From Phoronis australis (Eukaryota; Animalia; Phoronida): a stretch of 64,000 nt of DNA. The position numbers and the translations under genes are program-made. The notes below the pieces were generated by a model. The model was given only the letters and a program-made list of their open reading frames with translations. It did no database searches and was not told the origin of the DNA. The DNA lies in the NCBI GenBank assembly GCA_002633005.1, contig NMRA01000002.1:2135756-2199755 (forward strand), written 5' to 3'. Shown in pieces: positions 41 through 47,000 of the stretch. The stretch's first letter is position 1, and each line of letters begins with the position of its first letter.

Positions 41-3000
41 AACGTCTACCGTACTCTCTTTATATGATATGTGCGTGGAGATCCACCTGTGGACCACAAT
101 AGCATAAAGACCAGGTGAAGGTGTGAGTGCTGGTGATTAGGAATTGTTCATGTTTTCGAGAGATGGTCTGTCATGGACCTTGCACTGTTATATTTATTCT
201 AATTTTGACTTTTGGCTAAAGGGATATTTTCCTTTGTCATACCCTACTAAAAGTCTGAGCGATCAAGGCTCATTAGATCGGCTGCTAAATCCAGTTTCTG
301 TAGCATTTTCAAATGGAAATTTTTTTAACTCCCTCTGGATAGGACATTAGTTCATGCTTCTTCCCAGCCATTGCTGGAGTCATTTGTGTAGCTGAATTGA
401 TTCCTTTGACAGTATGTATTCATTGTTTATTATTCTCCCACCAGGTGTCCTTCACCTTAAGGTGACGTTCTCCCAGCAGTACCCACACGCCCCGCCCCTA
501 ATTGAGTTTCCCATGAGGCAAGCCATTCTACCCCCTGCCATAGTAAAGGATCTCTTAGACCATCTCAAACACGTGGTATGTATCATTGTTACAAGTTAAG
601 GCTTTCGGTTATCTGTTGGTCATCAGTTAAAAGTTTGAGCCATTCAACCCATTACTTGACCAAGAGTTTTTTTAGGGCTATGACTTTCTCCTGTTAGTTA
701 TGTTATCTTTACAGTTTTTAAACACAGAAGTCCTAAACATGATACATAAGAGCTCAGTTGGCTAATAACTGCAATGTGATTGACAGCCTTTTTGTGCATC
801 ACATTAGGTCATTACACGCTTGCAGCGTATCGGCTAATGAACATCAGTGAAACGGTGAAACAACTAACCATTCGTGTTACCCAGGATTGTTTTCTTTGAA
901 ACATGTTTGCGGTCATAATGGGTACTTTGAACAATCATGTTTAGGTGACACCTGGGCACATGCTTGAACTTTCAGCCTCTCCTTTGATTTTGATGTTATA
1001 GGCTCAGGACAATCTTGGCACGGCCATGGTCTTCACACTAGTGGAGGAAACGAAGCAGTGGTTGAATGAACACGCGGCGGCAGGTTGTCATGACGACGGG
1101 TCATATGAAGGCGAGGATAGTGAGGTAAAGGCGTATCTCCATGAATTTCTGAAATGCATTCTGGGCACTTAAACTGTATTATTCGCACAGTTCCTTTACG
1201 TTTCGTGGTGCATCCTTGATCAATGTCATCTAACTGTTGTTTCACCGAACTTAAAATAAATTAATAGGCTGCAATATATTTGATTATAACCCTGGTGAAT
1301 TGCCATGCATTGTATTGTCTGATTCGTTGAGTTAAATAAAAATATACTGTTTCAGTGTACAATATAAGACAAGTAATCTGTCAAAATACTATTTCCTCCT
1401 GGCTCAGACCAGCATGTTTATGGGTCTGGTTAACAGTTTTTTTCTCCACCTTGAGCTCTTCATGTTTATAGCCCTCACTTCTTCATTCATCTTGCTTGCC
1501 TTGGTATTGTTACCATTGCATCTGGCTAGTTTTCTTGATAGACACTAGATGGCATGACATTGACATGTAAAGGCATATTCTGTAACATTTTTGTTACAGG
1601 GGTGTGGCTTAGTGATATGTGATCATAAATTTCATTCATTCCGTGAGACCAATATATCTAGGGGAGAGACAACTACTAGGTAAAGGTGCACTTATGTGTC
1701 AAAAATATGGACTGACAATAGAGGCGTGGCCGTATCCAATCAGTGTTTATCAGCATCTACTTTATGTAGAGTCTGTGGAAGAGTTTTATATTACGTTTGC
1801 TTTATGATGTAGCAGGATAATCTAATCCATAGTTTTAGACTATAATGGTAGGCTTGCATTCAATGCCATTCTGCCAGAATCACAATTTGAAGTACTCTGG
1901 GGAAAACACTCTTTAGCGCCATCTGTGTATCAAGTGATTATGATGACTGTGCTATTAACATGATTAGACTAATTAAAATGAATTGTTATTTTGTTTTTAA
2001 TTAATTTCCTTTTCAGGACAATCTTGATGATGATGTTTTGGATATGCGAGACTGCAGCTTGGCCATACCCAAAATGACTGGTGGTAGATGGGAGTATGTC
2101 ATTGGTCTCGTGGTAAGGGTAGTCCGAGGGGGCAATAGGAAGCGGGAGACTTTATAGCATCCAGCAGAACAACAGTGAATTAGATCAAAGAACTGTGTTC
2201 TGACCGCAGCTAGTGGTCAAGTTCTAATGGAGAAAAATGGCAATCACTTACTGTGTATGAAGTTCATTATAGTTAAACTTTGAATTTTCGTAATGTTGTA
2301 TTTCTTTAAAAAAGTGTTCAAAGTAATGCAAACATACTTGACACATTTGGATATCCTTTGGATTAGATTGTTTGTTTTACAATTTCGCCAAAAAAGTTCA
2401 GTTGTTTTTTAGTGTTGACCACATTCTTCATACCATTGACTTCTCTCGCCAGGGTAAACCATCAGCTGGCAAGTCAACGTTCTTCAATGCAGCTACAACT
2501 CTTGACCTTGCCAAGACAGGTTCACACCCTTTCACAACGATTGAACCAAACTTTGGCAAGGCGTTCTACTCCATACCGTGTCCCTGTGCCAGACTGTGCG
2601 ACAAGCTTTGTGACGCTGGTCAGTTATTTTTGTAACAGTTGCACAAGTAGATTAAGACTTAAGACTGAAATTTGGTTTAACGCTCCCATTTCTCATTTGC
2701 TGAGTTTTAGCCACGTAACTATGAGGACATCACAGTCTAGAAATAATTGATATAAATTATCTCAGTAACTAGCAGTTATGGGCTTATTCTCAGCTTTTCA
2801 TGTTAATTTATTTTGCTCTTAGTAAGATTTTTAGAAATAGGTGTGTGGAGCGTAAGTCCAAATTTGTGAATTAAGTCTAAAATCTCCTTTCATGAACCTG
2901 ACCCGTGAGCTCGTGACCATCAAATTTTACTCACTCAACAGACCCTTAAGTAACTCACAGACTTTTACTCCAATACTTTAGGAATAGTGATCAACAAACT

Positions 3001-6000
3001 TTGCTCAGATTCGAGAACTGTTCTCGAGTATCTATGGAAGTTTTTGGTGGAATGAATCGAGAAATTTTTGTAAAATTAAATTAACACATTTTAAAGCCTG
3101 GTGCACTCTACAGTCAAGTAAGCAAATTTGAAATTGTTCATGTAAACCAGGTGTTAAAAAGTTTGTTAAGCGATGGTTGTCGTCTGTGGATTTTCCATTA
3201 AAAAGAGGATGATGTGTATTTTTTGATCAAATTGTATTTAATCATAGGCTACTGATTGCATTGTGCAAAGGAAATGAAATATTTAGATCACAAGGCTATA
3301 AATCTAATCTCAACTTGTTACTTAACTCTAATGAGAAGGGGTTTCTAGGCTTCAAAAGAAATGACATTTAGTTATTGCATGAGACCATGCTCTGCGCAGT
3401 AAATGATCCACAGTTGACAAGCTAACTTGTTGAGCTCGTCAATTGCTTCTCAAACCAAAAATCTTTTACTTTAAGTAAGGTTGAGACTAATGTCTTTAGA
3501 TACATTAGCCTCAACCTTACACTCCCATTTAAAAGTGTGAGTGACCATAATGAAACGTCGGTCATGTAATGTCAAATGTGAAGCGGTTCTATAACTTTAT
3601 CATTGACTTTGATTAAAAATTGTATTTAAGCACGTTTCACTATATTTTCGTTGTGTCTGGCCAAGTGAAATCTGTGTGCTGTTCTAAGGCAGTCTATGAC
3701 GTTTTTCTTGATAGAGTATGGTCACAACTTTGAAGGGCGTCGTCACATTCCAATTCTGCTGAAAGATGTTGCCGGTCTCATTCCTGGAGCTTCAGAAGGC
3801 AAAGGATTGGGCAACAGGTGTCGCTTGGTATTCAATCATCTGAAATGCCTGACGGTTACATATTTCAGTATACATGAGTGGGGATAGCCATTGGCAAAGT
3901 GATTTTGCTTCGGCAACTCAAATCACAGGCAACGCGACATTTTCAAATTTGCAATTTTAGGATTGATGAACCCCAATAGGCTCTGAAATGATTTTATGAA
4001 TTGTCAATAGTTTCAATGTTTTTGTTACTAAAAAAATGGAATTCGGTCATTGTAATGAATATTAAAAGAGCAAATTTATGAGAGTAAGAGGCCTAATTCA
4101 ATTTTCATTTTCAGCCATCTAAACGGAGCGAAATAAAAACTTTAAGCTTTTAGCCTGAAACAAAACAAATGCTGATGTTGAAGGAGAATAAAAAATCTTA
4201 AACCTTTTATTCTGATTTTATTATAATATCAATGATCATATACTTATTCTCTTAAGTGGTAATAAACTCATTCATTCTGTCAAAAACAATTTTGATTTAA
4301 GCCACTCCAATGTCTCCTTTTGCTTCAGATTAAGTTTGGAAGTGATTTCTAGACTTGAGGAAAACTGACAGTTTGTTATAGCTCCACGCCAGGTTCTTGA
4401 AGTTTGCTTGTCACAGTCCGTTAGTTACTGCCACCGAAGCAGTAAGGCTCTCTGGGAAATTCCAGAAGTTTTAATGCATCTAATTTCAATTCAAGCAAAG
4501 GTTAAAAACATCATTGAGATTACTTTGGAAGACTTATGGTAAAATTCTTCAATTTGGGTCAGTTTCTAAAATTTAGGACACAAACATTCAAGCCAAAATT
4601 GAATCTACTTGATTTTGAAGATTGGAACATATTGAATGATTTTGGCATTCATTATAGATATTTTTCAAATATTGGACATTATATTTTAAATCAACAAAAT
4701 CTGATATAAAATTGTCAAAAATAAATTCTCCCAACCCAAAATTCTTATGATTCTTGCAATGTTGGATATTTCAAAATTTTGGTATGAGCTTCAACCCCTG
4801 GCAAACTAAATTTAATTTTTCACTGTCCCAAACTGGAGAATCTTACTGTTAATGCACAATTGGGAAGAAAGTTGTTTTTGATATCAGAACGCAGTTTTTA
4901 GTGTCTTCAATAACGAAATAGAAAATATGGGTAACCTATTCTGAATGTCTTGCAATCATTTCTTTCAGATTTCTCAATGATTTGCTTGATGCAGACGTAT
5001 TGTTACATATTGTTGATGTGTCTGGCCACACCAATGAGAGAGGTCAGCAGACGTAAGGTCATGACCCCTGCCTGGATGTGCCATGGTTACAGGCAGAGAT
5101 ACAGTAGGCTTCTTTGTGTCTAATATGCTACTTTACACACTTCTAGCTAGTATTTTTATGTGATAAATTCTGTTAGTGCTTACTTAAACTGAGATTGTTT
5201 GCTTATCCTGACTGCACAGCCTGTATGACTTCTGTGTTTGACAGGCGTGTATTTCGTAGTCTTGCTTCCTTTTTGATTTCGTCTTCGATCTTAGATAAGT
5301 TAATACCTATTATTAGTGCACCTCTATACTTTGTACTGCATCCATGGTGGAGCAGTACTTTTGGAGTGTTTAACTAGCTCAAACTTCTTTTTGTCTTGGT
5401 GTGAAATTGTCAGATAATTGTTTCAGGCAGTGGATTTTCAATAATGTCATGGCCAAGTGGGACATCATCAAAAGAAAACCTTCAAAGTTGATTGACATGT
5501 TCACTGGTTACCACGCCAACAAGTCTTTAATAAACTCGGCCCTGGTCAATGCTGGCGTTGACCCCAAGTAAGTTTAAATTTATTGTGTTGTCAGTGGAAG
5601 TAAGAGACGCAATGAATTGAGCGTTTTCGACCGTCAATGGTTGTTCAGTTCTTGGGCCACGTAATGTGATGTCATCAATATCGAAAGGAGGGTACTGACC
5701 TATGTCACGGTTCATGACACTATCGCCCCTTTTCCTAATAAGTAGACTTTCACGTATCCAGCGTGGTGGCAGAGCGTTTTAATAGTCATTTCAATTTTTT
5801 AAGAAGTCTATTTGAACATAAATTTTATAAATTTCTTTCAGTTACAATTTCTTGTCTAGTTAGACTGTTTGTCTCATAATTATTTTAAAGTTGATGAAAG
5901 GTTTGTGGTGTATTTCTTTCACTTATTCCTAATTACAATTATTGTAAATTGTGTTTTCATAACTTGGTAACAGTCATCCATAAGTCTCCAGTTCATGGTT

Positions 6001-8098
6001 TTATTAGACATGAGTGCTCCTCCTTTTCCATGCATAGTCACAACTTATAGTTTGCATTATGTCCACTAGGGATCTCTCCAGTCTTCCAAAGTGGCCTGAG
6101 GAGAAGGTTCAAAAGATTGTCCTGGAGTTCTTGTCACTGCGATTTCCAATGCTGCTAGTGTTGAACAAATGTGATGTAGCAGGGGCAGAGGAAAATATAA
6201 GAAAGTAAGCAGCATCTGATTGTGGATTAGTGACTATGGCACATGACGTGTGCATGTTTGTCAGGCTGTGGTAAAATTTTTAAAATTTTGTACAAGATTA
6301 TTGTCAGATTTTGCCTTTCTCTGAAAAGTTTTTCAAATATTGATTTGTGTCAGCTGTGCTGTACTAAGCCTGCTAAACACAAATTTCAAACTTCTAGAAA
6401 TCTAAGTCATTTTTGTTGAGAATTTCACCAACTGAAAGTAATCATTATCTCGTTTGCCATATTGTGTCTCAAACTGAAGAATTGTTGTCGTGTGAATAAT
6501 TATTAAGTGCTGGTTAGTCTTTTGGACAATCATAAAATAATTAAAGTAAAGTGAAAGAAAAAAACTATTGCAATGGAATTAATTCAGATAATTTGCTTTT
6601 AATTGGATGGAATTCTGAATTGCCTAGTTATTGTTTTACGAAGTAAGCACGGAATTTCACAAACAATTTCTGTAGCCAGAGATAGTAGAGGCATAGTGTA
6701 CTTCCCTTGTTATTTCGTACGATGAAACACAACCTCTCTGTCTAATGACGTTGATCATACATCAGTCTCCTTTTCATAACTTCAGGTTACAAGACAAATT
6801 TCCTCAGCTTCCCAGTATACCAGTGAGTGCAAAAAAAGAAGTTTTACTTCAGAAGGCACAAAAGTCGGGCTCTTTACAGTACGAGTATGGCAGTAGCCAG
6901 TTCTCTGTGACAGAGAGTGGCCAGAATCATCTGACAGCGTCTGAGAAGTCTGTGCTGGATGACATTAGAAAAACTGTGATAGACAGGTTAGAGTCTTTTC
7001 TGAGATGGTTTTACATTTTACTTCTTTTAAGTAAAAGGTAGGGATAGGACAATATGGGATCTAAATAAATGTTGTGCTATGTACTTTTAAAAGCTGATGA
7101 TCTTCAGTCAGTGAAGTTAAACCAGAAAGTCATGTTATCAACTAGTTCAGCATTTAATGTGGGATGGTTGAACAAGATAACAGAATTCCCTTTTAGTATA
7201 CTTTTCCTCGTGGATTTTGTTATCGTCCCTAAATCTAACGTTGTTTCTCTAGTACCTTCTTTTAGAACAATTATAATGAAACTGTTGTCTTTAAATTTGA
7301 ATGTATAATGTATATGAACACAGACATGGTTCCACAAATGTCCACAAGGCTCTGTGCAAAGCTGTCTCACTACGATCCCCCTCCTATGTGTTTCCTGTGG
7401 GCTGCCTGGAAAGCTTGAAGATGGCCAACAAACATGAACGAGAGATACACACATTGAGGGACTGCATCTCCCTAAAACCAGAAACAACAGTTGAGGAGGC
7501 GTATGAAACACTGTGTCATTGTCCAACAAATATCTTGTCGGGTGAATTTGTAAGAGCCGAGGTGAGACATTATGTGATACCTTGGTACACTGTTACACTG
7601 TAGATATTTGAATGCTCAGCCAGTCACTACAAATATGAACACATTCACGTACAAAGTAGGCAAACAAAATGCCATGACCGCATCATGATGATTGACTCTG
7701 TTTTAAGTGGAGGGACTGACTGTTGATTGTGGCAATGTCCTAAATACGATGTAGTGTTTTCATCGACATACTTACTGGAGTGGTAAATTCTTTGTCATTC
7801 CCTGTAGTGACTGACAGATGGTTGCTATGACAATTAATTCCACTTTTATTTAGCGATGGCTAGGTCGTTTTGTTTGCTCTGTGGTGCTCTTGGTAAATTC
7901 CCGTGGAATTTTTTGCTTTGATGAAACTGATCAACAGAGATAGTATTGTCTTTTTTAAACAGTACTCTAGACATAATGCTTCATTGTGTTTTTCAGACAA
8001 CAGATGGTGCTGGTAACAGGAGACAGGTTCGAAAAGATGAAATTGTCCAGGACAGTAACAACATCATTAGATTCATGACCACAAAGAGAGTTCGGTGA
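41..8098 (+). CDS. RWD-domain / Ygr210c-like Obg-superfamily GTPase fusion gene (5'-partial, multi-exon; in-frame TAA at 5054-5056, possibly a pseudogenising allele)
   Basis: GT-AG exons with compatible phases: 41-120 (tentative), 445-575, 1002-1124, 2017-2112, 2453-2618, 3715-3817, 4969-5103, 5427-5567, 6070-6204, 6786-6986, 7324-7561, 7997-8098 (TGA). RWD signature [14 protein letters not shown]...[21 protein letters not shown]. GTPase motifs: G1 [17 protein letters not shown]2 [10 protein letters not shown]3 [24 protein letters not shown]4 NKCD, plus a Cys-rich CPC insert typical of the Ygr210c/archaeal subfamily. Confidence 0.88.
445..1124 (+). CDS. RWD-domain exons (445-575, 1002-1124) of the GTPase fusion gene
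   Basis: YPxxxP motif (QYPHAPP) and the C-terminal helix pattern [17 protein letters not shown] are typical of RWD domains (RWDD1/GCN2-like). An acidic linker follows, and splice phases join the exons in frame to the G1 exon. Confidence 0.8.
2650..2904. mobile_element. MITE fragment, same family as 20951-21247
   Basis: Shares the TTAAGACTTAAGAC..AAAT..GGTTT..CGCTCCC core, TCTAGAAATA..., CTCAGTAA and a CTTTCATGAA end with the 20951-21247 element. Confidence 0.55.
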
Positions 8099-10899: not shown

Positions 10900-13800
10900 A
10901 TGAATTTTGACGAAATTCTTCAAAGTTTGGGGACATTTGGCCGTTATCAAATGCGCATTTACTTTTTGCTCTGCCTGCCGACGATTCCGACTCCAATGCA
11001 CACGTTAGCACCTGTTTTTATTGCCTTCACGCCGAAGTACAGGTAAGCAGTTACGTCTTTACCATAAGTTGTGCGGTCCACTCACAAGTGCGATAGTCTT
11101 TGACTACCTCAATGCCTTATTACCAGCGCCAAGAAATCCTGTCTGAAAAATATTCCATTTGTAAAAATACTGTAGGTTAAATTTCAAAGGAGCGAATTCT
11201 TTTTGAATTAAAGTCACCGTAGGTTACATTCCGTGCCCATTTTAATAATGCAATAGTTGTTGATGAGTGTTTACAGCTAAGTTATTTTGCGAACCAGTTC
11301 CCTACATGGGAAGCGTTTGCTCAGAATGTTTACGCTAAGAAACCAGTATGTAGCAACGCAATATAAATAAACTTCTTGCAACTTTTTGTGACATTTTTGT
11401 TGTGTTTTTTCGGAGGTAAGTTTTTATTGATCAAATTTATCGTAATGTCAAATATGCGGTAACAATGGATATGGCAATGTATGTTGAAAAGCGCATAAAA
11501 CTTTCATCTAAGTTTGATTATCTTTTGTCAAGATGACTCTGTTAAAATATTCACATCTCAAATCAGCAACTTGGATTAATAGAGGCAAGATCATTGAAGA
11601 GATAAAAAATCATCGCTGAAGGATAGCTTTAACTCGTGAATTCACCGAGTAAGTATAGTCGTAGCTGTACTTTACCATGCCAGGCAATCCAAATTTTACT
11701 CAGTCCGTTTTACTCGAAACTTGAAAAAAATTCTCATTCTGAGCAAAATTTTGGAGACCACCAAAATGCACTCAGCCAAAAGAACTCAAAATCTTTAATA
11801 ATCATCAAGCTTTCGAGTAGTACTCATCCAAACCATACCCCCATGTAATTCTTTAGCTCAGCTCAAATCTGACACGCATATAGGGATGAAAATGCGACAA
11901 AATTTGAATCAAATTACTCTGGTGATTCTGACTTTATTTTAAGACGTTGAAATAGGATAATTTCCTAGTGATAGATTATATACTCTTAGGTTACCGCACT
12001 CCGAATGCCAATCACATAAATAAAAATAGTTACTGAAAAAGCGTATGCAGTGTGAGAGCCCTGTCACTAAGCTCGTTCTCGGAACGCGCGAGACTTCATA
12101 ACTCCCATTCTTTACTCCAATTCAAGAGGTACATATAGGCCTACTGTATCTCTTTCGTTGTCATCGATATGGAGATTTTGCATCAGTCTTGCCCACGCGG
12201 TACCAGAATTCTCCCACAGGAGAAGTTGGCAGGGACGTCTCACAAACTCGGGTCAATCCAATCCTCTCAGATATCGTTTCGGTTAAGTAATTTGTATACA
12301 CATTGCAGTCTTGAACGTGTAACTTGTCCGCGGTATGGTAATTTGGCTTTGCTTCCACCATGACGGGAGGAGGTATTTCGCATTCATTTACTTCTTATAC
12401 AATTTTACATCACTTGATATTGTCTCAACAAATTCACGTTTTCATATTACTCGGACAATTTGTTGGTGTATTTTAACGTGCCTATCTTTTCTACAGCGTG
12501 GTGTTACCTTAATTCAGTAGCGCTCCATGGTACGGCGTTCCTCCCACTTAGACGAGGTGAAAAAATTTTGTCGCACTTCCCACAGAAATTTATTTAGCTA
12601 CCGCAATAAAATTTGGGAGAAAGTTCGTCTGACGTTGCTGTCTGTTTGCTGACGGGAGTTGCGGCAACGGCGCTTCAGTATCGTCTTTTTGTTCAGGGAA
12701 CATAAATCGTATTGGTGTCTAGCCCGGTGCTAGTGTTATTGTTATTACGTGTAGTTGCAATATCACCATGCGTTCCATGTTGTGAAGTTTCGGGGTTACA
12801 TTAGTATTTTCCTTTGCCAATATCTTTATTATTCCACAGGTGCGCCATTCCGGGATATGACGGCGACACGTACGACGCCATCAATCAGACGCACGAGCTC
12901 TACATTAAAGCCTTCATACCGGACGACGACTTTTGTCACGTGTACACTGGCGTTAACATGACTTCACCATCGTGGGACTTGCTTAAGTTGAATGGAACAA
13001 CATGGGAGGAGCTAAACATTACAATGAAGAAAGTAGAATGCTCAGCTTGGGTTTACGACAGGTCGACTTTCCAGGAAACTATAATAACACAGGTACTTTA
13101 AAGTACCTTTGATGCTTAGATCTATCCAGCATCGATACCATCGACCATCAGTACCACACCTGTCACCACCAGCATGAATACTACTAACATGCATCACCAC
13201 CTTCGTTGTCATCAACATAATTATCACCACCACCCTTGCCACTACCATTGTTAACGTCATCGTAATCGCCACCATCTCAATCATTGTCACCTTCATCCTC
13301 TTAATTGTGACCATCGACTGCACCACTAACTGCTGCATCACCAGTCGTCACACAACCAAAACTATCCGGATTACCACCACGAGCATTTCCACATTCTTCG
13401 TCGTCATCACCATCGATGGTGTAGATGCCTCATGCCATATTCTTCATCATCATCGTTATTGCCATGTTCACTATCATCGCTATAATCATCATTAGTATAG
13501 TCATCAACATCATCTTCATCATCGTCTTTGCCGTTGTCGTCGTCATCTTATTTTCACCAACATTAAGATCATCATCGCCATGAATCATGAGTCATCGCTC
13601 TCATCCTTTTGCATTCATCATCTTTACCGTCAGCACCGACATCGTTGCACAATGGTTGTTACTAAACTTATACCGATTTCTAATTTGCAATAACTCTGAT
13701 CCGTGAAATCTGCAGCTGCTCATAAGCAAACATTCTTTTCGTGTTTCAGTATAATCTTGTTTGTAAAGATGCTCCTTTAGCAACTTACGCCACGGTGATA

Positions 13801-26873: not shown

Positions 26874-28384
26874 TTAAAGGAAGTGTGATACGCCGTGGTT
26901 CTAGGAGTTTACTTTTGTGAGTGTTATTGAGCACACCAGATTTAATTCGAATACAATAAACTTTCCTGGATGAATCCACAACTACATTCCTGGGTTTCAT
27001 TGAGGTTCGTTTGCACTAACTTTTTGAACCCTCATATTTGGACAGTTTGTAAAGCTTCCCGGCTAATAAACTGTCGTTATTTTCCTTTGCTATGATTTTT
27101 AGTTTCGCCAACCACATAGAAGTACATAAGTTACATCATGAATATTTTAGATACTTTGTGGACGGCCCACGAAGTTCTTTACACAATGATAACATACAGT
27201 ATGTGGAAACTGACTAAAATAAAAATACATTTAAACGCCGCTTGGAGGGCTCCAAGGATATTTTCCTTCGAAAAATATTTGGATTGCCCCTTATAGCATC
27301 CTAGAGCGGGGGGGGGGTCGCCCACACTGAACGGTGACTTACAGGATGCGGGGATACAGAAAGGTGCGTACTCTCCAATAATTTACAGGTTTGAAGGGGA
27401 AGCCTTCGTTGTAACCGACGAGTGTTGGGTGCGGGGAAGTCGAGAAAAGAAAAACGGCAAAACAAGTAGAAGAGAGAAAAAAAATTAGAGAACATCTATC
27501 ATTACATCAGTGCTGGATTGCCCTTTGGGGACCTTAGTAAGGACGTTTTTATTTGGAAGGGGCCCCAGTTTTTAAAAAAACGACACATCAAAAAAGTGTG
27601 AGAAAAATATATACGCAGATTTTCCAATGGCATGTTTCTAGGGATCGTTATTAGTTTAACGATAGGTGCATGCATGTTAGTACCACACGATTTAAACTAG
27701 CATCAACTCAAAAGGTTTTATAACGAATAGTTTTCAACATTTACAAGAAGGAAATAAGACATGACTCATAGAGACCCTGCTCTAGGCACCCAAAAATTAG
27801 CAGGTCTAGTCTACTTCTTTGCTTGATGACCGTGTTCAGGCTATCACTGAAAACAACCAGAAGTCACGTTAACACGAACAAAATCTGAAAATGTCTTTAG
27901 ACAGTACCCCCACCGTGGGACAACCCATCTTAAGGCCTCTCCCGGTTGCACGTCAAATACAGTGTGTTTGCGTGCACTCATCCCAAAATTGCCAAATTGC
28001 TCATTACCTAAATCGCGGATTTGTAACTTGCTTGCTACTTCAACAACGGTTAACTCAAAATGCCCAATATGTTTTTTTATAATTTCTTTTATCGTGTTGC
28101 CATGTCAAGATTATTACCCTCCGGCAACGTCAAAAAGTATAATAGTTGGCGCTGGACTGTCCCCGACTCATTTTGAAACGGATTACAGAAAACAGAAAAG
28201 GAGACGGTAACAGATGCACTGTGCAGTGCTCGAAATGTCCACAAATCTTGGTTTAACAACACAACTGGCCACACACATGTTAAAAATAATATTCATCATG
28301 AAGGCGCACAATACTACATTACTGACAGCGACTTTTACCACTTGGGTGCTGCGGCCTGTTGTGTATTGTACCATGACATACAAT

Positions 28385-29893
28385 AGCGGATTTGCAGCGA
28401 CGCCATATTGAAATTAGGTTAAAATGGTGCATTGTGGGTGTTGTGGTCAGGATTCCGAAAGCGGCCATAGTATCAAGCATAATACGCGGTATGAGCGCGA
28501 AGAAAACTTACGGCGGATACACTTGTTGTGTTCCTGGCTGCTTCAAAAACAACAAGAGAGATAAAAATCTGAGTTTTTATGTGTTCCCTGCAAACCAAGA
28601 ACTTCGTGAAAAATGGATAGACAACATTAGGAGAGCTGGGAGTAAGGGGAGATTTAGCGCATTCAAACCAACGCTGAGCCATCTACTAGGCAACACGTAG
28701 CCCCTCGGTTGGCCATATAGGGGCTACAATACTTCCATTCGCTTTCTGTACTCATTTCGTTACTTCAGTGTATTTTAAACGGGTCGTGACCGGATTTGGA
28801 TTACCGATTTCGAGTTTTCATCTCGTCAAAAATACATTCTACACTTAAAACTATCATTTAAAAAAACGCTTACTTTCATCATTGGTCCTTTCTACTTCTA
28901 TACATATCGTAAGCTTAGTTGTGAGAATTAAGTTGACTTTGGCGAAGAATTACATCACTTTTTTGGTTGCCGTTAATTTTATCACCGCGTGCGCGATAAC
29001 CATAAAGCATGTCAACTGAATCACGTGAGTTAGGCAAACTTGAAGGTTAGCGCGAGACTCGGCGAAGCGCGTGACGCTAGCGCGTGACACTTGTAAAATA
29101 GCATGAGAAGGTATCGGGTGAAACTTGTAAGATGTGTGTCTCTTAGACTTTTTATTCGTCAACATGCGTAATTTCACGTAACTTCCTCAAAATGGCACCC
29201 GGTAACTGAGAGAAACTCGAGCAAATGCGACAGATTTTCATCGAGTGTTCAAGTTTTGCTGACTAAATTGTATTCAGAGTCGTGGTATGTGATAATTATT
29301 TATAACTCCGTGTTCCTATATGTATGGTTCATTTGATTTTATTTGCTGTATTTTGAAACGAGTAACTTTTTGTGAGGATGTACCATCGCCCCTGAATGCC
29401 TGCGGCATCCAGTGCGATGTAATTGCCTGGGGGCCATCGTGTGTGCAGCGAACATTTTCCTGGTGGAAAAAAAGACGTATGAGAACAACATTCCGACGGA
29501 GTTTCCTCTTAAAATTCACGTCTCTAGCATATCCACGGCGAAAGCTACAAAAGTTTAGCAACCCAAGAACTATCAACTTGTCTGAAATCGGAGGAGATTT
29601 CGAAATCAACGCCAAAGGGGCCAATACTGAACATGACGACAGTCGTGCCCTCGGTCACACGGTCACTGATCATACATGTAGCTACGCTGTGTTTACGAAC
29701 GAGAGAGAGAGGACTTGCTTGGTATTATAAAGCAAAAAAATGAAACATGGTTTTTAGTTTGCAAGTCACTCCAAATGCACACACTATCCAGCCTGCTCAA
29801 GACATGCCTGACCACAAGCTATCCCATGAGCCTTCGCGCAGGAAGTAACTCGCACATGCGCAATGCGTAGTTCGTTTGCGCTGCAAATCCGCT
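28385..29893 (+). mobile_element. TIR DNA element with a truncated THAP ORF (ISL2EU/Harbinger-group-like)
   Basis: AT|AGCGGATTTGCAGCG ... CGCTGCAAATCCGCT|AT perfect TIR. The ORF from 28491 reads MSAKKTYGGYTCCVPGC...SFYVFP...REKWIDNIRR, the THAP N-terminal half, and ends before the final C-x-x-H. Confidence 0.75.
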
Positions 29894-35300: not shown

Positions 35301-38300
35301 TCTTGAAGAGTTCTGTCCCACCATCGAAAACTTTCGAAATCACCGTGAAACACTGATTTTAGGTGGAGATTACAACTAAATCTGCTAGAGACACAAACAA
35401 ACAATAAAGTTCGAACATTCCTGAATTTCATGACTAATCTCAATTTAGGACCTTCCAATACACACGCCACAAGTCTCAGCTCAACCTCAGCAACTCTAAT
35501 AGATAACTTCTTTACATCAACAACATACGGTCACATTCATACACACTCTAGTATTCTTCTATCTCAGATTTCAGACCACTGTCCTATCTTCATTGCTTCA
35601 AAAACTATAAAGAAACTCCGCACTAAACGCCCTACGTTCGTTTCAAAATATTCTTACACACCGCAAACAAAAGCTCACTTTCTCAATAACTTGCGAAACT
35701 GCAACATTATGGAAAAGCTGAACCTCAGATTAGATTGTGACCCCAATCACAATTACGCAATACTAAGTGATGCTTTAACAAATCTCACGAAAAAAACACT
35801 TTGGTCCAAAAAACATTATATGTAAACAAACACACCGGCGCTACCGAAATAAACTACAAACAAACCAAGGCAACCCCTCGCAACACACAATCCTACCCTA
35901 TATTCCATTACCACCTTAAAGTATACAACAAGATTCTCAAAAAGCTATTGATTCTGCCAAGCAATCTTACTATCATGACACATTTGAAAAAGGGAAGTCT
36001 GACATGAATAAATCATGGGATACAATAAAGACAGTTATGAACAACGGCGTGCGAACAAAAATAGTAACCCAGAATGTCTCTTACATTCAGATAAAATTAA
36101 AACCAGTGATCTACTCGAACTGGCGAGTTTATTCAACTGCTGCTTTACCCAAATCGGCTAATCCCTTTCTGAATCAATAACTATGACAAACAATAAGAAT
36201 TTGAAAGGCTATCTTCCCGCGCCAAACAAATTTAAATTCTCTTTCAAACAAATTAATCATAAACATATACTATTTACTATAAGAGACATGGACGCAAAAA
36301 TGGTACTGGTCATGACAAATTATCATCTAAAATTATCAAAATAAGCCGCTCTTTAATAATTGAACCTCTCACGACCATCATCAACCAATGCTTGCACTCT
36401 GGTACATTTTCAGATGCCCTCAAGGTGATACTGTTTTTAAACAACATGGTTTGGACCCAGAGCACTCTTGCAATTATAGACCCATATCTATTATCCCAAC
36501 AATCTAAAAAGTTATAGAAAAATTATCCACACACAACTTTCAACTTTCCTAAATGAAGATGATATTCTTCATAAACATCAATATGGCTTCAGGAAATGTC
36601 ACTCTACAGAACTTGCTTCGCTTGAGCTTTTAGACCGCACTTGTTCCCATCTTGATAATGACATGAGTCCCCTGGTCATAATTCTCGATCTCTCTAAAGC
36701 TTTCGCCACAATAGACCACCAAATACTTTTAAAAAAGATGAATCACTATGGTATCACTAGAGTTGAATGTACAGTATTTAAAAAACATTATTACCCAATA
36801 TGTTTCACTGAGGGATGCAACTTACCAATATCTACCGGAGTTCCCACAAGGCTCTGACCTTGGCCCACTTCTCTTCTTAATTTGCATCAATGATCTCCCG
36901 TTTTCTTCTCCCACGGACACACTTCTTTATGCTGGGGACACTTGCCTCGTCACACCTTACAAACTGACAGAATCTTTCCAACACATTTTACAGCAATCAG
37001 CCGCCATTAACAACAACCTTAAATCTATTTCAGTCTGGTTTTCCATGAACAAACGTTCAATTAATGCATCGAAAAGTAAACTAATGATCTTCCACTACCT
37101 CCAAAAGAAAATTGAAAAATGCATTATTCCCACAATTTATGTAAATAGCAAAGTAATATAACAGCCTCATTTCAAACAAACTTAACAATCTCGGTGGACT
37201 CGTATATAAATTGAAATATCTTCCTCTCCCAACTCCCAAGTTAATATATAATTCACTTGTTCTCCCACGTTTAAACTACGGCATTACAACTTGGGGTTTT
37301 GGCAATACTAAGAAACTCCACACAGCCCAGAAGAGAATTTTTGGAATATATCAAGTTCCAGTTACAATGCTCGCACTCTGCCCACATGTAAGAATGGTAT
37401 TAATCAAAATGAAGATCAATGATTTACAAGTGAGGGAAAATGAACATAAATTTTACTGATTTAAAGATGTTTTAAATGAATTGTGCGTCTTATTTTTCAT
37501 AGCGTATAAATGTCGGAACAGTGCTGTTTGTTAAACATGGTATTATTGCGCGTGCTCATTTAAGTATTCTGTTTTCACATTCGATGAAGTTACCTGCTTA
37601 ATGGCGCAGCGGTTAACTCTTGCGAAACGGGTTCGAAACCGTCCTCGAGTTCCCGCCCAAAATGTTATACAACGCTCGTTGAATAACTAAATGGGTTATT
37701 TAACGGCTGCATTGGCCGTGTCAGGCTGATAATGTGGTATAAAACACCTATTAACTCAAGTGCGAAAAGTCACGGTGCTCACACATGAAAGACGTGTGGT
37801 TTAACCCTTCAGTGTTTACTTCGCACACGAAACAGATAACACGTGCAAATATACGGTGTAAATACATGCTGATAGCCTGGGTGCGAAGTTGTATGCTAAA
37901 TATAGAGCTTTGGGCCGATGTGAGGAAAAATAACCAAATAAAATCTGACGCAAAATTAGTGACATTAAAAGCTACAATCTTCTTTTAGTAAGCTAAATTG
38001 TTTACAGGTGTTGAAAATTCAGCTGTTCTTCTTCCACGAGGTTGCGTAGGTGTCACAGCGACTTGTCGCAACTGGTTTAATTACGTTATAAGTTTTTAGT
38101 ATTTTAATACCAGCAAACCGAATTTTAGAACAAACTTTGTTGCTGCGAATTTGCCATCATTTCCCCAGAGATGTCACAAAAATTTAGGAATTGACGCGTG
38201 CGTGTTTCACGAGCTTACTGTTTTCAAAATGACATGCTTTTCATTGTTACAAAAGGCGGAGAATTGTGCTAGAAAATGACGTTTATTAGATTGTTTTTCA

Positions 38301-44049: not shown

Positions 44050-47000
44050 GCAACAACAACAACAACAACAAATACAAGGTCAGCAACCCACAGTTTGGTT
44101 TTACTTAACAGATAATAGTAACAACACTAACACTTAGGATACAAAATACCCATACAATATATATAAACTGGGAGAGTGGGAGAGTAGGTTGCAATCCTAA
44201 CAATTCTTCACGCAACAACATTCCTTTTATGTGTAAGAAGACACAGGTTTCAGTTTCACTGGATTACGTACAATGCTCTTAAACAAGCCATGTTTGGATC
44301 ACCTTCACTATCTGCTGGTATAAAATTTCTCATCAGATAACTAAGTTCAGGGCACACAATGAAAGAAAGTAAACACGTGATTACATGTAGGCCTATGCCA
44401 GAATTGTAATACAGGCATGTAGTTTCACTTTTGTCCGTATTACAAGTCTGGCTTATCTCAATGCCTCCAACCAGCAGTACTAAGCACATACGAAGCACCA
44501 ACAGCCAAGCTAGGGACTAGGGTAGATTTTGTTGGTGTAATTGAGTTCAATGACCCAAATTCAGATGACAAATTGGCGGTAAATTTGACTTTTATCGCAT
44601 TCAAACAGTTAAAAACGCCGATACTTGACTTCCACTGGGCTACATCATTCTTCACTTTGTATCAGTAGCAAGTCTTTTACCTTTCCGATGAGTGCACTAA
44701 ATGCACAAACGTCCAGAGAGATATCTTCGCACGTCTACTCTGTATGTAGCGCCACCTGTATCGTTACACTTTAGCTTGTTTCATTTTACACGTATACTAG
44801 TTTCGTTATTTGCTTTAATTCTATACCTTCAAATCTGGAACTGTTCATAAGAAGCACATCGATCTATTATTCGTGTTTCAGTTTAATCTTGTGTGCAACG
44901 ATGCTCCTTTAGCAACCTACGCCACGGTAATATTCATGGGAGGTGTATTAGTCGGTGCATTTGGCTTTGGATTTTTGTCTGATGCGTAAGTACGGAGCGA
45001 AGTATGGACACTTTCTCAAATCGTATCAATATGTTGAGAGATAATTGTCGCCATTATTGTTCTTTGGTAACAGTGTAGGCCTACATGTACGGTACATTAA
45101 ATGAAGCCATAAGGAATGTAAGAATGATTGGGAAAACAGACATATCCTATTTCACCACACTCTGTTCCCTGTCGTCGTTTTTTCACCTCACAACCCACAT
45201 GTTTCCCACCCTAGCTGGCACAAAAATTTCAAAATACCCTTTGGCCTTTTCTCAAAATTAGAAATAAATCCCTGGCTCTTTTCCTGTCTTTTAAGTCGCC
45301 TTTTAGCCATGCCAAATCAGCACTAGAAATTCAACCAACAATTCTGTTATACCCTCAAACCACGAGTGTGACTTCACGCTACAAATTTCGGAGGGCACGT
45401 GTCCCCATCCGCAAAATCCTGCTAATGGCTGTACTTTAAAAGAAGCCAGTGAATAGAATGTCAGTTACGAATGGAAACCGTGGACGCATTTCATCATTTC
45501 ATGGACCTTCAAACATGAGTTGTTTCAATTTGCCAGCTCCGCAGCAGTAGCAGCATCACTAATATCATCAGTGACCTCTTAACATGGGGCCTGTTCAAAG
45601 AAATTTTTACTTAGCTAAAACAAATCTTAAGATTCAGCCAATTTTAATATAAAGCTTAAAAATTTGTCTCAAGTCCGTTTCAAGAAGAGGTCTTAAGTTT
45701 AACTTAAGTTTTTGAATTGAGTTTTGTCTCAATTTTTACTAACTTACCGGATGTGGAAGTTTCAAAGTTTGGAAGTTGAAAAAAATCTTGGACTTTATTC
45801 AAACATTTTTAAGTCAATTTCTTGGAAAAAGCCCTGATTTTTATATAGTCTAAAATATGTAGATTTATTTGGTTGACGCTTCGTACTTTATTAGACAATT
45901 GCATAAGAACCTTTGAAGTAAATGTCTCAACATGTTTAGGATTGGCCGCAAGAAGACTCTGCTTATTGCAATCTTCCTTCAAGGAGCTTCTGGCGTAGGT
46001 TGTGCATTTTCGCCAAATTACGTTGCATTTGTCATCCTCCGGTTATTGGTTGGTGCAGCAAACGCTGGAATTTTCACGGCTGCATTCGTTTTGGGTAAGT
46101 TGGACACTCACAAATATTTTAACAACGGGTGTATAGTTAATAACGAGAACACCGGCGACTGTAATTTGAATAGTAAGATAAAAAAATCGGGAAACGTCCT
46201 CAGGACAAGGACATTCTTAATGGGTGACTACTAAAAGGATTAAACAATGAAAACTGGTTTGTGTCTAGCTCAAAACACTAGATGGCGTAGCAGCCTGGTG
46301 TGCGTTCTGTAGACGCACATTACTCCAGAAAATGGCTGAACTCACAAGTCTTCGCTAAATGTTGCCTTGTATGACGAACGAAGCACACGATCACGCTAGC
46401 TTTCTCGTACACTCCTTACGTTAACAGAACTCAGGCCTGCGTAGGTCAGACCAAAAGCTCGACACGATTTTGTAACTACAAGAGAGAAAATTAGTGATAT
46501 TTGTTAGATAAGATAGCATCGCGCGGGACTACATATCAAGGCGAGAGAAAGCTATGTAAAAGTTCCAGCATACATTCTGGGCTTGTTTGCTGACATATAG
46601 ATGTGACAGTGGTCAGGTGTAGTTTAACAGTTTGAAGGAATCTTCGATGAAAACTATTTGCAAGCACATACTTAGCACACGACTAAAGATTATTCTGTAG
46701 AAGTGAAAGTTGGGTTTACAAATTTTAAGGAAAGAATTGTGAAGTACTAGCGAGCCTATCAATTTGTCTGAGGAGCAGTGGTTTTTCTCTTTCAGTGATA
46801 GAGTCTTTCGCTTCATCTGTTCGCGTTAACATAGTTCTAAGTCGGAGCTGCCTGTTTGCCCTTTCCTACCCGATCCTCTCTGGCATGGCTTACGGTTTAC
46901 GCGACTGGAGTAAGATACAGTTCGTGGCATCCGCTTTAGCAGTTGTATACTTTATTGGTATAAGGTAAGAGGATCGACGCATGTGTAGCCCGTTATGAAC

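What the first reader, a model, noticed from the sequence alone, without database searches (positions are those of the whole stretch)
445..8098. RWD domain fused to a Ygr210c/archaeal-type Obg GTPase in an animal
Seen: RWD exons splice in frame, through an acidic linker, into a GTPase. Its motifs ([12 protein letters not shown]...[37 protein letters not shown]4 NKCD) resemble yeast Ygr210c rather than OLA1/YchF (G4 NxxE, ATP-preferring) or DRG. Established: the Ygr210 subfamily is known mainly from archaea and fungi and has little functional data. RWD proteins RWDD1/Gir2 partner the Obg-family DRG2/Rbg2 GTPases, and RWD domains (GCN2, IMPACT, Gir2) bind GCN1 on stalled ribosomes. Inference: this may be a Rosetta-stone fusion, a single-chain analogue of Rbg2-Gir2 linking this orphan GTPase to ribosome-collision/GCN1 signalling. 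The intron-rich structure argues for long residence in eukaryotes rather than contamination.
Basis: partly seen in the sequence, partly recalled or inferred. Interest (0 to 1): 0.78.

Follow-up and report, generated by a model that had tools for sequence, protein, structure and literature searches.

The report
RWD-tethered Ygr210-type GTPase of invertebrates
This is a real, spliced and expressed animal gene that joins an RWD docking domain to an archaeal-type GTPase in one chain; it belongs to an old, unstudied family found in invertebrates, algae and protists, and it likely uses the docking domain to reach GCN1 on stalled ribosomes.

Summary
The gene is real. Eleven GT-AG exons encode most of an RWD domain, an acidic linker and a Ygr210-type Obg-family GTPase. 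RNA reads join the second RWD exon to the exon that begins the G domain (19 reads, 3 runs).

The fusion is neither animal-specific nor unseen. Invertebrates from corals to tunicates carry it. Choanoflagellates, algae, dinoflagellates and euglenozoans carry it with an added FSH1 esterase. Databases label it, one supplement legend mentions it, and this scan noted the protist form twice on other DNA. I found no functional study.

Trees show it is not the orthologue of the standalone fungal Ygr210 type. It is a second, RWD-bearing paralogue, and both nest inside Asgard archaea. The RWD is closest to RWDD1/Gir2 among solved RWDs. The GTPase is built like YchF/OLA1, not DRG, and no DFRP domain was found. 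The best reading is a GCN1-tethered, GTP-using YchF-like ribosome factor (about 50%). GCN1 and ribosome binding were not tested.

The parts
445..575 (+). Exon: middle of RWD domain with the YPxxxP motif; the RWD N-terminus lies upstream of the window
   Evidence: Pfam RWD E 2e-4; tblastn of homologues; profile positions 42-85; RNA depth
1002..1124 (+). Exon: last RWD helix and start of acidic linker
   Evidence: junction to 2017 in 7+2+10 RNA reads
2017..2112 (+). Exon: rest of linker and first beta strand of the G domain
   Evidence: strand 149-153 in the model of the homologue P0002; junction from 1124
2453..2618 (+). Exon: G1 (GKPSAGKST), G2 (PFTT) and the Cys-x-Cys...Cys part of a likely zinc-binding insert
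   Evidence: Pfam MMR_HSR1; best PDB hit 1wxq; junction to 3715 in 6+6+8 reads; zinc binding is inferred from Cys/His conservation
3715..3817 (+). Exon: His of the insert and G3 (DVAGL)
4969..5103 (+). Exon: G domain; holds the assembly's in-frame stop
5054..5056 (+). In-frame TAA in the assembly (codon 235); an assembly error or a nonsense allele
   Evidence: RNA reads G at 5054 in 21 of 21; DNA contig of run X1 also G
5427..5567 (+). Exon: helical insertion, 8 residues shorter than in standalone and most archaeal forms
6070..6204 (+). Exon: G4 (NKCD)
   Evidence: junction to 6786 in 14+2+16 reads
6786..6986 (+). Exon: G5 and YGR210-like_G4 region
   Evidence: Pfam PF08438 E 7e-11; junction to 7324 in 13+5+15 reads
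7324..7561 (+). Exon: end of G domain and start of TGS-like domain
   Evidence: junction to 7997 in 5+5+14 reads
7997..8098 (+). Last exon: end of TGS-like domain and stop codon

Best explanation
The gene encodes one protein, an RWDD1/Gir2-like RWD domain joined by an acidic linker to a Ygr210-type Obg-family GTPase, and the RWD likely docks it on GCN1 at collided ribosomes, where the GTPase would act on the stalled ribosome in the manner of YchF/OLA1. Shown: one spliced, expressed gene; the domain content; intact G1-G4 motifs; membership of an RWD-bearing clade apart from the standalone fungal type. Predicted: a flexible linker and a YchF-type fold with helical and TGS-like domains. Inferred: GTP rather than ATP use (NKxD); GCN1 binding; ribosome binding; competition with GCN2 and other RWD proteins for the same GCN1 site. 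Family loss of the gene appears tolerated (a Chlamydomonas deletion strain lives), which suggests a redundant stress or rescue role.
For: Junction reads and frame. RWD detected in 115 of 123 rows of the fused clade and 0 of 26 rows of the standalone eukaryotic clade. Among solved RWDs, RWDD1 scores best for both the animal profile (87 bits vs GCN2 53, RNF25 43, RWDD3 31) and the protist profile (72 vs 53, 46, 33). Gir2's RWD is necessary and sufficient for Gcn1 binding and links an Obg-family GTPase to collided ribosomes (PMC8040806, passages). The position matching GCN2 D37, a predicted contact of GCN1 R2312, is acidic in 35 of 35 animal and 56 of 70 protist RWDs; the E136 position is acidic in 24 of 35 and 38 of 70. 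NKxD in 47 of 47 fused-clade rows and 0 of 5 YchF. Model of the scallop homologue: pLDDT 90.7, linker 116-129 under 50; it aligns over the whole chain of 1wxq (Z 32.6, rmsd 2.9, 332 residues) and of YchF (Z 20.1). YchF/OLA1 binds the large subunit and promotes splitting of stalled ribosomes (PMC11814078, abstract).
Against: No binding or activity was measured, and no Ygr210-type protein had functional ribosome data in what I read. The acidic positions discriminate poorly: RWDD1 itself has Ser at the D37-aligned and Thr at the E125-aligned place, the E125 position is acidic in 0 of 35 animal and 11 of 70 protist RWDs, and docking predicted GCN1 binding for nearly all human RWDs. RWDD3's RWD binds Ubc9 instead. 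The animal linker is short (median 30 residues), and YchF's site near uL14/H62 differs from Rbg2's site, so reach to GCN1 is not assured. The FSH1 esterase of most protist members is not explained by this model. RWDD4 was not among the solved RWDs hit, so it was not compared. The RWD count is inflated by a search that included the RWD and by a profile built from these same proteins.
Confidence: 0.5

Rival explanations
1. The GTPase is a large-subunit maturation or recycling factor, and the RWD binds a partner other than GCN1 in that pathway.
For: Obg-family members often act in ribosome biogenesis (PMC8629797, passages). YchF binds the free 50S subunit. The standalone clade and the archaeal forms have no RWD.
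Against: Four other RWD proteins are reported GCN1 binders, and this RWD is nearest RWDD1.
Confidence: 0.2
2. The RWD is an E2/ubiquitin- or SUMO-pathway adaptor, as in RWDD3, and with the protist FSH1 esterase the protein forms a modification or deacylation module switched by the GTPase.
For: RWDD3 binds Ubc9. The esterase has GxSxG in 62 of 68 rows examined, and the protist profile also hits acyl-protein thioesterases weakly.
Against: RWDD3 scores far below RWDD1 and GCN2. Animals and a Mastigamoeba-containing group have no FSH1 part.
Confidence: 0.15
3. In this species the gene is decaying and works poorly or not at all.
For: In-frame TAA in the assembly. Run X7 has reads through intron 5104-5426 with a changed donor +3 base in 10 of 10 reads. 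Five of 11 exon variants examined change a residue, besides the stop codon itself (the best-supported rows only, 134 rows were not shown).
Against: 21 of 21 RNA reads carry the sense codon; five junctions splice in three runs; all G motifs are intact; the branch is not long (0.4, median 0.52).
Confidence: 0.1
4. RWD and GTPase exons belong to two separate genes.
For: Junctions 575/1002 and 2112/2453 were not among the rows displayed.
Against: 19 reads join 1124 to 2017, and exon 2017-2112 carries the first G-domain strand. 45 of the 120 listed homologues carry RWD and GTPase in one chain.
Confidence: 0.02

Closest known systems
Ygr210 subfamily of Obg GTPases (archaeal PRK09602, P. horikoshii 1WXQ, standalone fungal, oomycete and alveolate proteins)
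   Same: G1 [10 protein letters not shown]2 PFTT, G3 DVAGL, G4 NKxD, Cys-rich insert, PF08438, whole-chain fold match.
   Different: N-terminal RWD; separate clade (100/99) from the standalone eukaryotic clade; helical insertion 8 residues shorter; scores under the archaeal NCBIfam cut-off (285 vs 387 bits).
Unstudied FSH1-RWD-Ygr210 proteins of algae and protists (Chlamydomonas Cre12.g538200)
   Same: Same clade, same RWD-linker-GTPase core.
   Different: The animal form has no FSH1 esterase and a shorter linker (median 30 vs 71); animals branch apart from the protist forms, choanoflagellates included.
Gir2-Rbg2 (RWDD1/DFRP2-DRG2) complex on Gcn1-bound disomes
   Same: An RWDD1-like RWD linked to an Obg-family GTPase with a C-terminal TGS-like domain.
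   Different: One chain instead of two; no DFRP family hit; the GTPase is not DRG (23 bits vs 267) and has the YchF-type helical insertion rather than the HTH and S5D2L domains with which Rbg2 touches the 60S and A-site tRNA.
YchF/OLA1
   Same: G domain, helical insertion and TGS arrangement; second-best fold match (Z 20.1).
   Different: G4 is NKxD, not NxxE; G2 PFTT, not PFCT; Cys insert; RWD; outside the YchF clade.

Membership tests
Ygr210 subfamily | PF08438 YGR210-like_G4 domain | tested here: met
   window exon 6787-6987, 43 bits over the 24.7 cut-off; 5 of 5 animal homologues scanned
Ygr210 subfamily | Closer to archaeal PRK09602/1WXQ than to YchF, Obg or DRG | tested here: met
   285 vs 89 vs 68 bits for homologue P0002; 267 vs 82 vs 63 vs 23 bits for profile A1; Z 32.6 vs 20.1
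Ygr210 subfamily | Canonical G4 NKxD | tested here: met
   window NKCD; 16 of 16 animal rows
Ygr210 subfamily | C-terminal TGS domain | tested here: inconclusive
   No Pfam TGS hit at E 0.01 in the fused proteins; the model aligns to the end of 1wxq and YchF, over their C-terminal part, so TGS-like by structure only
Orthologue of standalone fungal Ygr210c-type | Groups with fungal standalone proteins | tested here: not met
   AU p 9e-8 against animals plus Dispira, Coemansia and Chromosphaera; yeast Ygr210c itself was not in the tree
YchF/OLA1 | G4 NxxE and TIGR00092 over cut-off | tested here: not met
DRG/Rbg | DRG-type sequence and HTH plus S5D2L domains | tested here: not met
   Rbg2 23 bits; no MMR_HSR1_Xtn hit; Rbg1 Z 15.4, level with unrelated GTPases
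RWDD1/Gir2 (DFRP2) | RWDD1-like RWD domain | tested here: met
   best solved RWD for both profiles; 41-42% identity in structure alignments; RWDD4 not compared
RWDD1/Gir2 (DFRP2) | C-terminal DFRP domain | tested here: not met
   no DFRP family listed at E 0.01 for 8 fused proteins; the GTPase follows about 30 residues after the RWD
GCN1-binding RWD proteins | Acidic residues at the predicted GCN1 contact positions | tested here: inconclusive
   D37 position 35 of 35 acidic, E125 position 0 of 35, E136 position 24 of 35 in animals; RWDD1 also departs at two of them
GCN1-binding RWD proteins | Physical binding to the GCN1 RWD-binding domain | not testable with these tools
Obg-family ribosome factors | Ribosome binding and nucleotide hydrolysis | not testable with these tools
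   needs bench work

The most novel reading that the evidence does not exclude
Early eukaryotes duplicated the Asgard-inherited archaeal counterpart of YchF and fixed a Gir2-like RWD to one copy. That copy is an overlooked GCN1 client GTPase, parallel to DRG2-RWDD1, that splits or rescues collided ribosomes and competes with GCN2. It survives in invertebrates, algae and many protists, and appears lost from humans and the standard animal models, which would explain why nobody has studied it.
Probability: 0.35. Interest if true: 0.8.

Novelty: new variant of a known kind. Interest (0 to 1): 0.52.

Why it matters
GCN1 is thought to choose among RWD-bearing partners to decide the fate of collided ribosomes. 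A conserved GTPase with its own RWD would add an unrecognised branch. It would also give the first functional handle on the Ygr210 subfamily, whose archaeal members have no functional data according to a 2021 review. The idea is testable now: a Chlamydomonas strain lacking the gene already exists. The value is tempered because the architecture is in databases and nothing functional is shown here.

Tried and rejected
A homology search with exon 7325-7561 found nothing (weak search). A second read-laying aimed at the undisplayed junctions and at the DNA state of 5054 gave no result, so those stay open. The profile search of cluster representatives never ran, so family size at 50% clustering is unknown. 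A two-chain prediction of the RWD against its own GTPase part gave no verdict. No RNA holder was listed in the index; raw-read runs of the same species label were laid instead. The Atlas search returned only standalone Ygr210-type and DRG clusters and had no model; it added nothing on the fusion. No whole genome was held, so the upstream RWD exon and other Obg-family genes of this animal were not seen. Rejected: contamination (introns, animal position in trees); OLA1 or DRG identity; an animal-specific fusion; orthology to the standalone fungal type. Literature searches gave one mention of the architecture and no functional study. Supplements and most subscription papers are outside those searches. 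One review (PMC3165542) was not held.
Full report
OBSERVATION. The window's + strand holds eleven exons between 445 and 8098 with GT-AG at all ten introns. They give 522 codons in one frame. Eight full-length homologues map onto them in order. Identity to the 11 animal homologues aligned is 44-55%. The first ~43 RWD positions are not in the window. Raw RNA reads from three runs with the same species label (18-19% of each run read) show five junctions with GT-AG ends, all on one strand. The key one, 1124/2017, has 7, 2 and 10 reads. Exon 2017-2112 ends in the first strand of the G domain, so this junction ties RWD to GTPase. Five more joint rows were not displayed, so 575/1002, 2112/2453, 3817/4969, 5103/5427 and 5567/6070 rest on splice signals and homology only.

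A MISSED STOP. Codon 235 (5054-5056) is TAA in the window. All 21 RNA reads covering 5054 (3, 4, 14) read G, which gives a Glu codon, and the DNA contig of run X1 also reads G. It is an assembly error or a nonsense allele; these data cannot tell which.

DISTRIBUTION. A search with exon 2453-2620, which contains no RWD, gave 2745 hits. Of the 120 listed, 45 carry RWD and GTPase in one chain, 35 of them among the best 62. Named carriers are bivalves, gastropods, the nemertean Lineus, Capitella, amphioxus, Phallusia and Acropora. A second search, with the RWD-GTPase part of a euglenid protein (378 hits, 120 listed), returned FSH1-RWD-GTPase proteins. Named ones come from choanoflagellates, Ichthyophonus, diplonemids, Papus, green algae, Tribonema and dinoflagellates; Mastigamoeba has RWD-GTPase. 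No vertebrate, arthropod, nematode, echinoderm or land plant name appears in either list. Many rows have no name and the searches need shared words, so loss is suggested, not shown. A table in PMC4263083 (passage) lists Ygr210 for yeast only, among Arabidopsis, rice, a red alga, human and E. coli.

FAMILY. The animal profile scores 1wxq at 267 bits, OLA1/YchF at 62-82, Obg at up to 63 and Rbg2 at 23. NCBIfam PRK09602 gives 285 bits (cut-off 387) and YchF 89 for the scallop homologue. G4 is NKxD in 16 of 16 animal, 31 of 31 other fused-clade, 15 of 17 standalone, 26 of 26 archaeal and 0 of 5 YchF rows (four rows were relabelled by their tree position). A Cys-x-Cys, Cys, His set is present in 14 of 16 animal rows; zinc binding is my inference. 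Five genomes reached through archaeal-type loci had no YchF over the cut-off; one of them is titled Sulfurovum. Five such genomes all had a DRG-family hit over the cut-off. So the Ygr210 type looks like the archaeal counterpart of YchF. A 2021 review notes NKxD in Haloferax 'YchF' and no functional data for archaea (PMC8779481, passages).

TREES. In the careful mixture-model tree (56 rows, 393 columns, bacterial YchF as outgroup) all eukaryotic rows form one clade (100/100) inside Asgard archaea (99/97). Their sister is one long-branched Heimdallarchaeota row (96/89). They split into a standalone clade (97/92; fungi, Chromosphaera, Rhizamoeba, oomycetes, alveolates) and an RWD-bearing clade (100/99). 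The 95-row quick tree agrees (P0228 and L035 were dropped because no G1 start was extracted). Animals plus the opisthokont standalone rows are rejected as a clade (AU p 9e-8). Both clades span opisthokonts, amoebozoans, stramenopiles and alveolates, which points to a duplication near the root of eukaryotes with patchy loss (inference; no single genome with both was seen). Inside the RWD clade, animals (98/93) stand apart from protists, choanoflagellates included (100/99). Holozoan monophyly is rejected at p 0.007 and 0.02 (mixture), but in that 22-row tree animals were not one clade. Rate effects, a further duplication or transfer among protists all remain open. Limits: archaeal rows came from a search seeded with an Asgard protein (80 of 306 loci kept, 22 used), and yeast Ygr210c, eukaryotic OLA1 and DRG were not in the trees. 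In a 153-row fast tree (33 near-duplicate or odd rows of 185 dropped) RWD was detected in 115 of 123 fused-clade rows and 0 of 26 standalone rows; 73 rows also had FSH1. That count is raised by the second search and by a profile built from the same proteins.

STRUCTURE. The scallop homologue P0002 was folded as a stand-in with a 133-row alignment: mean pLDDT 90.7, pTM 0.77, residues 116-129 under 50. Residues 148-548 align to the whole of 1wxq (Z 32.6, rmsd 2.9, 332 aligned) and 146-549 to the whole of YchF (Z 20.1); Rbg1 gives Z 15.4. Residues 1-117 align to GCN2 and RWDD1 RWDs (Z 15.4-15.6; 27% and 42% identity). Pfam found neither TGS nor DFRP in the fused proteins at E 0.01; the C-terminal domain is TGS-like by structure.

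THE RWD. Among solved RWDs, RWDD1 is best for both the animal and the protist profile. GCN2 D37, E125 and E136 were mutated together as predicted GCN1 contacts in a 2026 preprint (10.64898/2026.04.27.721104, passages). I mapped them through, assuming a one-residue offset in chain 8t7t. They are acidic in 35, 0 and 24 of 35 animal RWDs and 56, 11 and 38 of 70 protist RWDs. RWDD1 has Ser and Thr at the first two places, so the test is inconclusive. The window's product has Thr at the second and Glu at the third; the first lies outside the window.

MECHANISM. Gir2's RWD binds Gcn1 and links Rbg2 to the leading ribosome of a disome; Rbg2 touches the A-site tRNA through S5D2L (PMC8040806, passages). 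GCN2, IMPACT, RWDD1 and RNF14 bind GCN1 by their RWDs, and RWDD3 binds Ubc9 (PMC10931611, passages). YchF binds uL14, bL19 and H62 and promotes splitting of stalled ribosomes (PMC11814078, abstract). The simplest reading is a Gir2-like tether on a YchF-like, GTP-using motor (0.5). Every binding step is inferred. The Chlamydomonas lf5-2 strain lacks the gene and is maintained and studied, so it is not essential there. The yeast YGR210C leader has a strong AUG uORF (PMC5793785, passages); this concerns the other paralogue and is only a hint of translational control.

WHAT IS KNOWN. RefSeq names these proteins 'uncharacterized GTP-binding protein YGR210C-like'. The one mention in print that I found is a supplement legend in PMC12711092, listing the four Pfam domains of Cre12.g538200 as 'conserved in algae and invertebrates' (passages seen, the supplement file was not opened). 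Searches. Also seen: PMC8629797 and PMC3064805 (passages) and 10.64898/2026.05.13.724932 (abstract). That Ygr210 was first described from archaea and fungi (Leipe 2002) is recalled, not read; that 1ycd is yeast FSH1 is also recalled. Unsearched supplements may hold more. This scan earlier noted the three-part form in Plasmodiophora and a diatom; no look-alike DNA was noted in other genomes.

VERDICT. It is a new variant of a known kind: catalogued but unstudied, with a sound, untested link to GCN1. Interest 0.52.

Noticed in passing
window 5104-5426: Run X7 alone has reads through this intron (depth 8.5 in bin 5221-5510 vs 0.9 and 0.8), and 10 of 10 reads at 5106 carry G at the donor's +3 base. 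Read-through meets a stop in the intron. It may be an intron-retaining allele, next to the assembly's stop codon.
   Followed up: partly
window 5052-5058: The assembly's stop codon also forms a good 5' splice-site match (GTAAGG), so if it is a real allele it could act as a cryptic donor.
   Followed up: no
P0172, P0175, P0212, P0181 vs animal rows: Choanoflagellate and Ichthyophonus members group with euglenozoan and algal ones, not with animals; unexplained.
   Followed up: partly
L079: A long-branched Heimdallarchaeota protein is sister to all eukaryotic rows.
   Followed up: no
L056 675-1868: An archaeal-type Ygr210 gene lies on a short contig of a 0.9 Mb genome titled Sulfurovum that has no YchF over the cut-off; mislabelling or mis-binning is likely.
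   Followed up: no
window 2700-2850, 4330-4375, 4550-4850, 5608-5645, 6450-6485: Short repeated elements in the introns draw many partial RNA reads and contigs from elsewhere in the genome.
   Followed up: no
window 36480-37158: Reverse-transcriptase fragments in two frames, a broken LINE-like element by appearance.
   Followed up: no
window 28377-28697; 45917-46231: A THAP domain and an MFS transporter exon (86 of 135 long frames were scanned).
   Followed up: no
window 10900-11046: A frame that looks like the first exon of an organic cation (SLC22-like) transporter; recalled resemblance, no Pfam hit.
   Followed up: no
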